DNA of 62,532 nt, the filler included, from Dugesia japonica (taxonomy: Eukaryota), in assembly GCA_001938525.1 (NCBI GenBank). It is 7 parts of 7 records of this genome, joined end to end, with 100 filler letters (N's around TTAATTAATTAA, not from the genome) between each part and the next. Parts side by side here need not be neighbours in the genome. Positions count along the whole stretch, not along the records: positions 45,852 to 54,190 come from MQRL01242754.1; 6 more parts are not named here. The stretch is one strand, 5' to 3'. Below are positions 49,114-50,337 of the stretch, piece by piece. The notes beneath the pieces are model-generated. The model was not told the origin of the DNA. It made no database searches and was given only the letters and a program-made list of their open reading frames with translations. Position 1 is the stretch's first letter. The number at the start of each line of letters is the position of its first letter. Both the position numbers and the translations under genes were made by a program.

Positions 49114-50337
49114 ATGACACCAAAATATATATGTGACAATTGTGGTAAAAATAATTTTAATGAAAAATAAATCACGACATTTAGATTTGTGTACTAATAA
49201 TATAAAACAAGGTGAAGATTTACAAAGTTCAAAATTAACATCAGCATTATTAAAACCATTTATTTGGGAAAAGTATCCAGGTGAAGAACCAATTAATAGA
49301 GTTGATAATGCCGCATTAAAACATGACATCCCATATAATTCACAGGACATTAGAGATCGACACATTGCAGATGTAAATTTAATACATGATTTAAATAATA
49401 TCCAAAATCCAACAGCAAGTGAAAAATTACAAAGAGCTTTGGTAAAATTAGCAATGAAAGGAAAAATAATTATTGGCAGTGGTGGTAAAAGAAATGATCC
49501 TTTAAAGAAAAGTACTATTGTTGAAGAAGAATCTGATGATGAAATTGACCCAAGTGAAATTAAAAGTAATGAACTTCATATAGAATATAGAAGGCCTAAA
49601 AATTTTAGAAAAGTAATAGTATATGAAAAGATGATATTTGGTCAGTAGATTTAATATTTCAAGGAATAGAAAGAAAAGATAAAAAGGTATTATTAACTGT
49701 AATTGATTTATATACCCGCTTTGCTTTTATAGAACTTTCTAAAAATAAAACTGGACCAACAACAACAAAAGCATTTGAAGGAATTCTAGAAAAAAATTTT
49801 AGGACACCAAATAAATTATGGGTTGATAAAGGAAACGAATTTTAAAATTTAACATTTAAAACTTTCTGTAAAGATAATAACATTATTTTGTATTCAACTG
49901 AAAATCATGGCAAAGCAGTTGTCATTGAAAGATTTAACAGAACACTTAAAAACAAACTCTTTAAACATTTTACTGCCGTTCGGAATCAAAATGTTACTTT
50001 AGATTTATTAGAGCAAATTGTAAATGATTACAATAACACAATACATTCAACAATTAATGTTACACCTCAACAAGCATCAATAAATCCAGAAAGTAATAAA
50101 CTAAATATGCCAACTACTTTTCCCGAGAAACTTAAATTTAAAATAGGAGATCGTGTTAGGATTACTAAAATTGGAAAAACCTTTCCTAAAGGGTAAAAAT
50201 TTAAATGGTCAAAAAGAATTTATATTATTACAAAAATATACCATGAAAAAATTTATACATTTGAAATCAGTAATTTACACGGCAACAAAATGTTGGGAAG
50301 ATTCTATGGTAATGAATTACAGAAATCGGCATTATAA
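49114..50337 (+). pseudogene. Zinc finger-PLA2-rve integrase fusion (Polinton c-integrase)
   Basis: YICDNCG...RHLDLC, then parvoviral-type PLA2 PINRVDNAALKHDIPY...RHIAD in frame with ELH...RKVIV. After a frameshift: DDIWSVDL, LTVIDLYTRFA, KLWVDKGNEF, KAVVIERFNRTLK, YNNTIHSTI and KFKIGDRVRI. Confidence 0.92.

What the first reader, a model, noticed from the sequence alone, without database searches (positions are those of the whole stretch)
49114..50337. Tripartite C2HC zinc finger-phospholipase A2-integrase fusion, apparently missing the PLA2 calcium loop
Seen: the PLA2 catalytic motif (D..A..HD..Y...D) is in the same open frame as the integrase N-terminus (ELH...FRKVIV). A CxxC..HxxxC finger begins at the upstream ATG, one frameshift away. 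The YxGPG calcium-binding loop expected before PINRVD in parvoviral-type PLA2 is absent, and the sequence reads KYPGE-EPINRVD. Inference: a deletion between two PGE-coding microhomologies removed the loop. The ancestral fusion could couple membrane escape with delivery of a virion-packaged integrase.
Basis: partly seen in the sequence, partly recalled or inferred. Interest (0 to 1): 0.7.

Follow-up and report, generated by a model that had tools for sequence, protein, structure and literature searches.

The report
Polinton integrase fused behind a phospholipase
This is a dead copy of a virus-like jumping element whose DNA-inserting enzyme is built as one chain with a membrane-breaking enzyme; intact relatives suggest the chain is a retrovirus-like way of loading the inserting enzyme into the virus particle, while the missing loop here is just decay.

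Summary
The stretch is a decayed gene in a Maverick/Polinton-type remnant (capsid, integrase, packaging ATPase) from a high-copy family in an AT-rich animal genome. The zinc finger-PLA2-integrase chain is real: natural one-ORF relatives exist (P0001, P0006), and 25 of the 150 best distant relatives carry a PLA2-like head. The calcium-loop loss is private decay: 24 of 26 listed relatives keep the loop motif and the other two begin inside that segment.

The more interesting result lies in intact elements. In 8 of 10 loci found with an integrase motif, PLA2 sits directly upstream of the integrase. In two lineages (L012; L015/L017) the integrase has no start codon before its first catalytic Asp and lies in the -1 frame behind an in-phase slippery heptamer and a 12-bp stem with a compensatory change. 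In L015/L017 the protease is joined to a core protein in the same way. GG and GxG motifs, the sites the mavirus protease cuts, mark the domain borders.

Best reading (inferred, not shown): a Gag-Pol-like packaging polyprotein that is cut apart at virion maturation, hard-wired in frame in this lineage. I found no description in the papers searched.

The parts
46290..46600 (.). Left end of the remnant: arrays of short tandem repeats
   Evidence: matches 51190-51242 in inverted orientation, 45 nt at 84%, E 1e-8
47870..49085 (+). Double jelly-roll major capsid gene, broken into three frames
   Evidence: PF21738 E 9e-12; tblastn with L007 capsid E 3e-10; close relatives P0157, P0158
49114..49192 (+). 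Zinc finger (CxxC-x12-H-x3-C), split by a frameshift at about 49160-49170
   Evidence: in one frame with PLA2 in P0001, P0006, P0033
49202..49225 (+). Position where relatives have GG in front of the PLA2 (candidate protease site); the window has only one Gly here
49271..49306 (+). Deletion junction (about 49277-49285): about 29 codons including the calcium loop are missing
   Evidence: contig pieces of other copies start here and depth steps up
49286..49470 (+). Remaining parvovirus-type PLA2 domain (HD..Y, second Asp, two long helices)
   Evidence: PF08398; model of relative P0033 matches rice sPLA2 best
49463..49486 (+). K-x-x-x-G-x-G(G) motif closing the PLA2 domain; candidate GX|G or GG|X maturation site
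   Evidence: site rule from PMC6048507
49571..50337 (+). rve integrase (D 49648, D 49825, E 49927), no chromodomain; head in frame with PLA2, then a frameshift and two stops
   Evidence: P0001 model matches foamy-virus integrase, E 4e-14
50391..51130 (+). A32-type packaging ATPase, broken
   Evidence: PF04665 E 1e-5; tblastn E 1e-21
51190..51242 (-). Short inverted copy of the left-end repeat unit; possible right end of a ~5-kb remnant
   Evidence: (I23)

Best explanation
The window holds a dead endogenous copy of a group-2 (Alpha-adintovirus-like) Maverick gene that encoded a zinc finger-PLA2-integrase polyprotein; the calcium loop was deleted after the copy stopped working. In living relatives the PLA2 gene (zinc module, GG, PLA2, KxGxG) lies directly upstream of an integrase that often has no start of its own. 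The integrase is made as an extension of the PLA2, by a programmed -1 frameshift in some lineages and by an in-frame fusion in others, including this one. The PLA2, a presumed virion protein, carries the integrase into the particle; the element's Ulp1/adenain-type protease then cuts at GG|X and GX|G, freeing a lipase for endosome escape and an integrase for the incoming genome. Shown here: fusion, gene order, deletion, frameshift signals in sequence, motif positions. Inferred: actual frameshifting, packaging, cleavage, lipase activity.
For: One-ORF relatives P0001 (463 aa) and P0006 (470 aa). 25 of 150 best 50%-cluster representatives have a PLA2-like head; several recur at full length within their clusters; atlas clusters of 184, 111 and 72 members carry both Pfam families (scores 0.82-0.85, leads only). 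Loop motif in 24 of 26 listed proteins, the other two start inside the segment. PLA2 directly upstream of integrase in 8 of 10 motif-found loci; in 6 of the 7 out-of-frame cases no ATG precedes the first catalytic Asp. L012 and L015/L017: in-phase A AAA AAC plus a 12-bp stem 5 nt on, z -3.4 and -4.1, all 12 pairs kept with one two-sided and two one-sided changes. Of 99 in-phase heptamers in 24,580 codons of 8 loci, 3 had a strong stem: these two and one at the end of a core-protein gene, which proved to lead in the -1 frame into a protease lacking its own start. GG/GxG within 90 residues before the integrase in 22 of 25 PLA2 and 3 of 3 protease fusions; in 8 of 10 full-length fusions listed they occur only at domain borders, apart from the loop. 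P0167 is ATPase-PLA2-integrase with such sites at both joins. Mavirus protease cuts GG|X and GX|G, and integrase, ATPase, protease and a cleaved hydrolase are in mavirus virions (PMC6048507 passages).
Against: No experiment shows frameshifting, cleavage or packaging in any Maverick here. The clean frameshift signal rests on two lineages (L015 and L017 are 97% identical); L014 has an A-run but a weak stem (z -1.0), L009 has its own ATG, L008 has no slip site in the overlap and L011 is +1, so these may be broken or mis-assembled in-frame fusions. The stem thresholds were set after seeing L012 and L015. GxG also ends 7 of 8 unfused PLA2 ORFs, so it predates the fusion and could be a helix cap; the control class had shorter heads (mean 62 vs 90 residues) and 14 of 53 also had the motif. 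An obligatory in-frame fusion would force 1:1 PLA2:integrase, unlike the frameshift. 9 of 24 relatives have a non-Gly at the last loop position, so not all PLA2 domains need be active. No protease, polymerase or penton gene was found in the window.
Confidence: 0.62

Rival explanations
1. Neutral gene-order accident: PLA2 and integrase are neighbours on one strand, stops between them are lost repeatedly, and the fusion is merely tolerated because a cleavage site already ends the PLA2. Integrase packaging does not depend on it.
For: Adjacency in 8 of 10 loci; fusions do not form one clade (AU test p 0.0003, 18 rows against 23); GxG predates fusion; most of the 150 representatives have no PLA2 head; insect reference elements keep PLA2X apart from the integrase (PMC8502044 supplement Fig. 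S2 text).
Against: Integrases of L008, L011, L012, L014, L015, L017 have no ATG before the first catalytic Asp, so they need the upstream gene or splicing; conserved slippery site and covarying stem; same device in front of the protease.
Confidence: 0.2
2. One reading: an uncleaved three-domain protein in which the PLA2 stays on the integrase-DNA complex and opens the endosomal (or nuclear) membrane for it.
For: One ORF with intact HD..Y and DDE in most fusions; these integrases lack the usual helical N-terminal domain, so the PLA2 sits in its place.
Against: Candidate protease sites on both sides of the PLA2; low pTM (0.56) and low-confidence linkers in the P0001 model give no sign of a fixed interface; the head is exchangeable for a protease or extended by an ATPase.
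Confidence: 0.12
3. The loopless PLA2 is a selected, catalytically dead scaffold variant of this lineage.
For: The deletion keeps the reading frame; some relatives have non-canonical loops.
Against: No listed relative shares the deletion (0 of 26); other copies in the same host break off from the window at this junction; the same gene has two frameshifts and two stops.
Confidence: 0.03

Closest known systems
Maverick/Polinton group 2 = Alpha adintoviruses with PLA2X (Starrett et al. 2021, PMC8502044; bioRxiv 10.64898/2026.06.19.733378)
   Same: Double jelly-roll capsid, A32 ATPase, rve integrase and parvovirus-type PLA2; PLA2 is described as common in group 2.
   Different: PLA2X is described as a separate gene ending in a pX-like domain; here the PLA2 runs into the integrase, the pX-like gene is separate in relatives, and the window and P0001 integrases have no chromodomain.
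Mavirus virophage maturation (Born et al. 2018, PMC6048507)
   Same: Clan CE protease cutting GG|X and GX|G; integrase, ATPase, protease and a cleaved hydrolase are packaged.
   Different: Mavirus proteins are separate genes; no lipase-integrase chain or frameshift is described in the passages read.
Retroviral Gag-Pro-Pol (recalled, no call)
   Same: Enzymes are made as -1 frameshift extensions of a structural protein, packaged, then released by the viral protease; slippery heptamer plus downstream stem.
   Different: DNA virus-like element; carriers are a PLA2 and a pX-like core protein; cysteine protease; some lineages fuse in frame.
Predicted adintovirus Penton and Hexon-Adenain frameshifts (Buck et al. 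2024, PMC11071296)
   Same: Suggests -1 frameshifting in adintovirus virion genes, including a capsid-protease fusion (section 16).
   Different: Does not mention PLA2 or the integrase as a frameshift product.
Parvovirus VP1u PLA2 (PMC3626588)
   Same: YXGXG loop and HDXXY motif; loop Tyr and Gly substitutions abolish activity, so the window's loopless domain would be inactive.
   Different: In parvoviruses the PLA2 heads the capsid protein, not an integrase.

Membership tests
Maverick/Polinton (complete element) | rve integrase with DDE | tested here: met
   PF00665 and D/D/E positions, gene broken
Maverick/Polinton (complete element) | [quoted passage not shown] | tested here: met
   PF21738 E 9e-12; similarity to L007 capsid
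Maverick/Polinton (complete element) | A32 packaging ATPase | tested here: met
Maverick/Polinton (complete element) | Protein-primed PolB in the element | tested here: not met
   No hit in the window with the L007 PolB or Pfam; this copy is therefore filed as a remnant, not a complete Polinton. Relatives L008, L009, L011, L015, L017 have PolB
Maverick/Polinton (complete element) | Cysteine protease and penton | tested here: inconclusive
   Not found in the window with distant queries; a protease lies beside the close integrases in L001 and L002
Maverick/Polinton (complete element) | Long terminal inverted repeats | tested here: inconclusive
   Only 45-60 nt of inverted tandem-repeat match between 46340 and 51240
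Maverick/Polinton (complete element) | 6-bp target-site duplication (recalled) | not tested
   Ends too degraded to place
Adintovirus PLA2X | Parvovirus-type PLA2 domain | tested here: met
   PF08398
Adintovirus PLA2X | C-terminal pX-like domain | tested here: not met
   Replaced by integrase; pX-like protein is a separate gene in L007-L017
Active parvovirus-type PLA2 | YXGXG calcium loop | tested here: not met
   Absent in the window, present in 24 of 26 listed relatives
Active parvovirus-type PLA2 | HDxxY and second Asp | tested here: met
Active parvovirus-type PLA2 | Phospholipase activity | not testable with these tools
   Needs an assay; fold of relative P0033 matches rice sPLA2 best (Z 6.7, rmsd 3.0, 82 aligned; Foldseek E 0.03), a moderate score
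Programmed -1 frameshift site (relatives L012, L015/L017; not the window) | In-phase X XXY YYZ heptamer inside the frame overlap | tested here: met
Programmed -1 frameshift site (relatives L012, L015/L017; not the window) | Stable structure 5-9 nt downstream, conserved | tested here: met
Programmed -1 frameshift site (relatives L012, L015/L017; not the window) | Measured frameshifting or transframe peptide | not testable with these tools
   Needs reporter assay or proteomics

The most novel reading that the evidence does not exclude
A large branch of Mavericks/Polintons loads its enzymes into the virion the way retroviruses do: the integrase is translated only as an extension of the PLA2 entry protein and, in some, the protease as an extension of a pX-like core protein, by programmed -1 frameshifting or by hard-wired in-frame fusion, and the viral protease then releases them at GG/GxG sites. 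The window preserves the hard-wired form.
Probability: 0.55. Interest if true: 0.82.

Novelty: new variant of a known kind. Interest (0 to 1): 0.66.

Why it matters
No Maverick virion has been characterised, and how the integrase reaches the incoming genome is open. If PLA2-integrase chains and -1 frameshift junctions are the packaging route, this gives short, directly testable signals, argues that these elements make real particles with a lipase-based entry step, shows convergence with retroviral Gag-Pol, and means many database Maverick integrases and proteases are annotated with wrong, truncated starts. The loop deletion in this particular copy has no biological interest.

Tried and rejected
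No whole genome was held for this window, so other copies were seen only as short contig pieces; no listed piece spans the stretch. Expression: no listed holder was on record as RNA; in one raw RNA run 45 reads were laid, all under 95% alike and on both strands, which says nothing about this copy. Loci searches with single proteins in viral contigs gave nothing usable, nor did the alignment in prokaryote genome contigs or tblastn of phage records. PDB sequence search found only weak AAV VP1 matches, E 0.09-0.9. A first 149-row tree did not finish; the FastTree run left out 3 short rows and the AU test used 41 chosen rows. I first took GxG as selected for the fusion and dropped that after unfused PLA2 genes showed it too. 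I first took all seven out-of-frame junctions as programmed and kept only L012 and L015/L017 as clean, L014 as possible. Splicing as the join was listed only for L008 and is not excluded elsewhere. Print searches: (PLA2/phospholipase with integrase and Polinton/Maverick/adintovirus, fused, polyprotein, Pfam names) found no description of a PLA2-integrase fusion; 'frameshift' was checked only inside six papers plus one section, not across the library, so the novelty of the frameshift is less well searched. Slides and the sequence compilation in the PMC8502044 supplement could not be read and bioRxiv supplements were closed; either may show such fusions.

Full report
1. Observation. The described features are all present. 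An ATG at 49114 opens a short frame with CxxC; the His and last Cys lie in the next frame, at the usual 12-residue spacing. ORF 49118-49648 runs without a stop from the PLA2 motifs into the integrase head and matches PF08398 above its cut-off. The integrase core follows behind a second frameshift and holds two premature stops. Neighbours are a broken double jelly-roll capsid gene upstream and a broken A32 ATPase downstream. The host is an AT-rich (about 24% G+C) animal by its cadherin and mariner-type sequences; I did not identify it.

2. The fusion is real. A search for longer relatives gave 2 hits among 366 candidates, both with PF08398 and PF00665. P0001 (463 aa) and its cluster member P0006 (470 aa) carry zinc finger, PLA2 and integrase in one ORF. 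Of the best 150 representatives returned for P0001, 25 have a PLA2-like head and 3 a cysteine-protease head (Pfam check of 34 chosen proteins). Several fusions recur at full length within their 90% clusters, so they are not single assembly errors. The atlas holds clusters of 184, 111 and 72 members with both families, one automatically named for them (scores under 0.9, leads only). The P0001 model (pLDDT 81, pTM 0.56) matches foamy-virus integrase; the model of P0033 gives rice secreted PLA2 as top hit in two searches, with moderate scores. On integrase trees the fusions cluster but not as one clade (AU p 0.0003 on 41 chosen rows), which means repeated gains, losses or both.

3. The missing loop is decay. 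The window lacks 29 residues against P0001. Of 26 listed PLA2-integrase proteins, 24 show the loop motif and two start inside that segment; none shares the deletion. The family is very abundant in the host: 8,706 contig pieces were laid in one run, mostly 90-95% alike, none spanning the stretch; depth rises about sixfold at the junction, 7 of 24 listed pieces begin at 49277-49283, and loose ends there translate to the Pro-Gly flank that precedes EEPIN in P0002. This fits deletion between two similar flanks. Loop substitutions abolish activity in parvovirus B19 PLA2 (PMC3626588 passages). With two frameshifts and two stops in the same gene, the copy is dead. Whether the finger is in frame in this host's own family is inferred from relatives, not seen.

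4. How the chain is made in intact elements. A DNA pattern for an integrase motif gave 10 loci. In 8 (L008, L009, L011-L015, L017) a PLA2 gene lies directly upstream on the same strand; L010 and L016 have none. L013 is in frame. In the other seven the integrase frame overlaps the PLA2 tail, and in six no ATG precedes the first catalytic Asp. L012 and L015/L017 have an in-phase A AAA AAC inside the overlap, the integrase in the -1 frame, and a 12-bp stem 5 nt downstream (z -3.4 and -4.1). L012 and L015 are 73% identical over the integrase DNA and keep all 12 pairs, with one two-sided and two one-sided changes. In 24,580 codons of 8 loci there were 99 in-phase heptamers and 3 with a strong stem (thresholds set after seeing the first two). 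The third, found blind, lies at the end of a pX-like core gene and leads in the -1 frame into a protease whose conserved head precedes its first ATG. Against this: L014 has a weak stem, L009 its own ATG, L008 no slip site in the overlap and L011 a +1 offset at an A-run, although the capsid, ATPase, penton and PolB matches of L008, L009 and L011 are unbroken; earlier scan notes on A-run deletions that mimic slippery sites made me treat these as undecided.

5. Candidate cleavage sites. GG or GxG lies within 90 residues before the integrase in 22 of 25 PLA2 fusions and 3 of 3 protease fusions, against 14 of 53 others, 12 of which are the turn of the ordinary integrase N-terminal domain (windows unequal). 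In 8 of 10 full-length fusions listed such motifs occur only at domain borders, apart from the loop; the rate in integrase cores is 0.002 per residue. P0167 joins ATPase, PLA2 and integrase with these motifs at both borders (one sequence). The mavirus protease cuts GG|X and GX|G, and integrase, ATPase, protease and a cleaved hydrolase are found in mavirus particles (PMC6048507 passages). The motif also ends 7 of 8 unfused PLA2 ORFs and is frequent in pX-like proteins, so it is older than the fusion; that weakens it as a sign of selection for the fusion but fits routine maturation cleavage.

6. Mechanism. Shown: gene order, one-frame fusions, frameshift signals in sequence, motif positions, the private deletion. 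Inferred: the PLA2, a presumed virion entry protein (PMC8502044 passages), carries the integrase into the particle; the protease frees both; the lipase helps endosome escape and the integrase acts on the incoming DNA. Confidence 0.62. Rivals: tolerated read-through of neighbours (0.2), an uncleaved bifunctional protein (0.12), a selected dead lipase (0.03).

7. Comparison and novelty. The parts are those of group-2 Mavericks/Alpha adintoviruses (PMC8502044 passages and part of the supplement; 10.64898/2026.06.19.733378 passages; PMC5803895 passages). This copy lacks a detectable PolB, protease and penton and is filed as a remnant. PLA2X is described with a pX-like tail, not an integrase. PMC11071296 (passages and section 16) predicts frameshifts for penton and capsid-protease, not for integrase. 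Term look-ups in PMC11071308, PMC11131425, PMC11296320, PMC3671162, PMC10748475, PMC8363768 and 10.64898/2026.10.13.758929 and seven library searches showed no description of the fusion; the frameshift was not searched library-wide. The Gag-Pol comparison is recalled. Verdict: the loop loss is ordinary; the fusion is a real, widespread, apparently undescribed variant whose likely logic is testable. Interest 0.66.

Noticed in passing
L015:3530-3996 and L017:15168-15640: U UUU UUA heptamer and 10-bp stem at the end of a pX-like core gene; the protease follows in the -1 frame without its own start. A second predicted frameshift in the same element.
   Followed up: partly
protein P0167 (757 aa); P0015, P0054, P0057, P0172: ATPase-PLA2-integrase triple fusion (one sequence) and protease-integrase fusions (one cluster of 70 members), with GG/GxG at the joins.
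   Followed up: partly
window 46290-51242: Capsid, PLA2-integrase and ATPase lie within about 5 kb between short inverted tandem-repeat ends, with no PolB found: a deleted copy or a polymerase-less mini-element; not resolved.
   Followed up: partly
window 54239-55457 (-) and 51488-54178 (-): A second, 76-93% identical copy of the upstream ORF and capsid start lies head-on beyond assembly gaps; between them are further element ORFs, one weakly like a membrane protein of L007 (52376-52858).
   Followed up: partly
L008-L017: Several intact Maverick-type contigs sit in bacterial or archaeal metagenome bins (L011, L012, L014, L015, L017), probably misbinned.
   Followed up: no
P0009, P0010, P0012, P0013, P0040, P0042, P0044, P0077, P0091: The last Gly of the calcium loop is replaced (F, W or N) in 9 of 24 fused PLA2 domains while HD..Y is kept.
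   Followed up: no
window 59505-61693 (-); 39433-39849 and 44863-45703; 25375-26385: Fragments of an LTR retrotransposon (RNase H, rve), mariner-type transposases and a host cadherin-domain exon.
   Followed up: no
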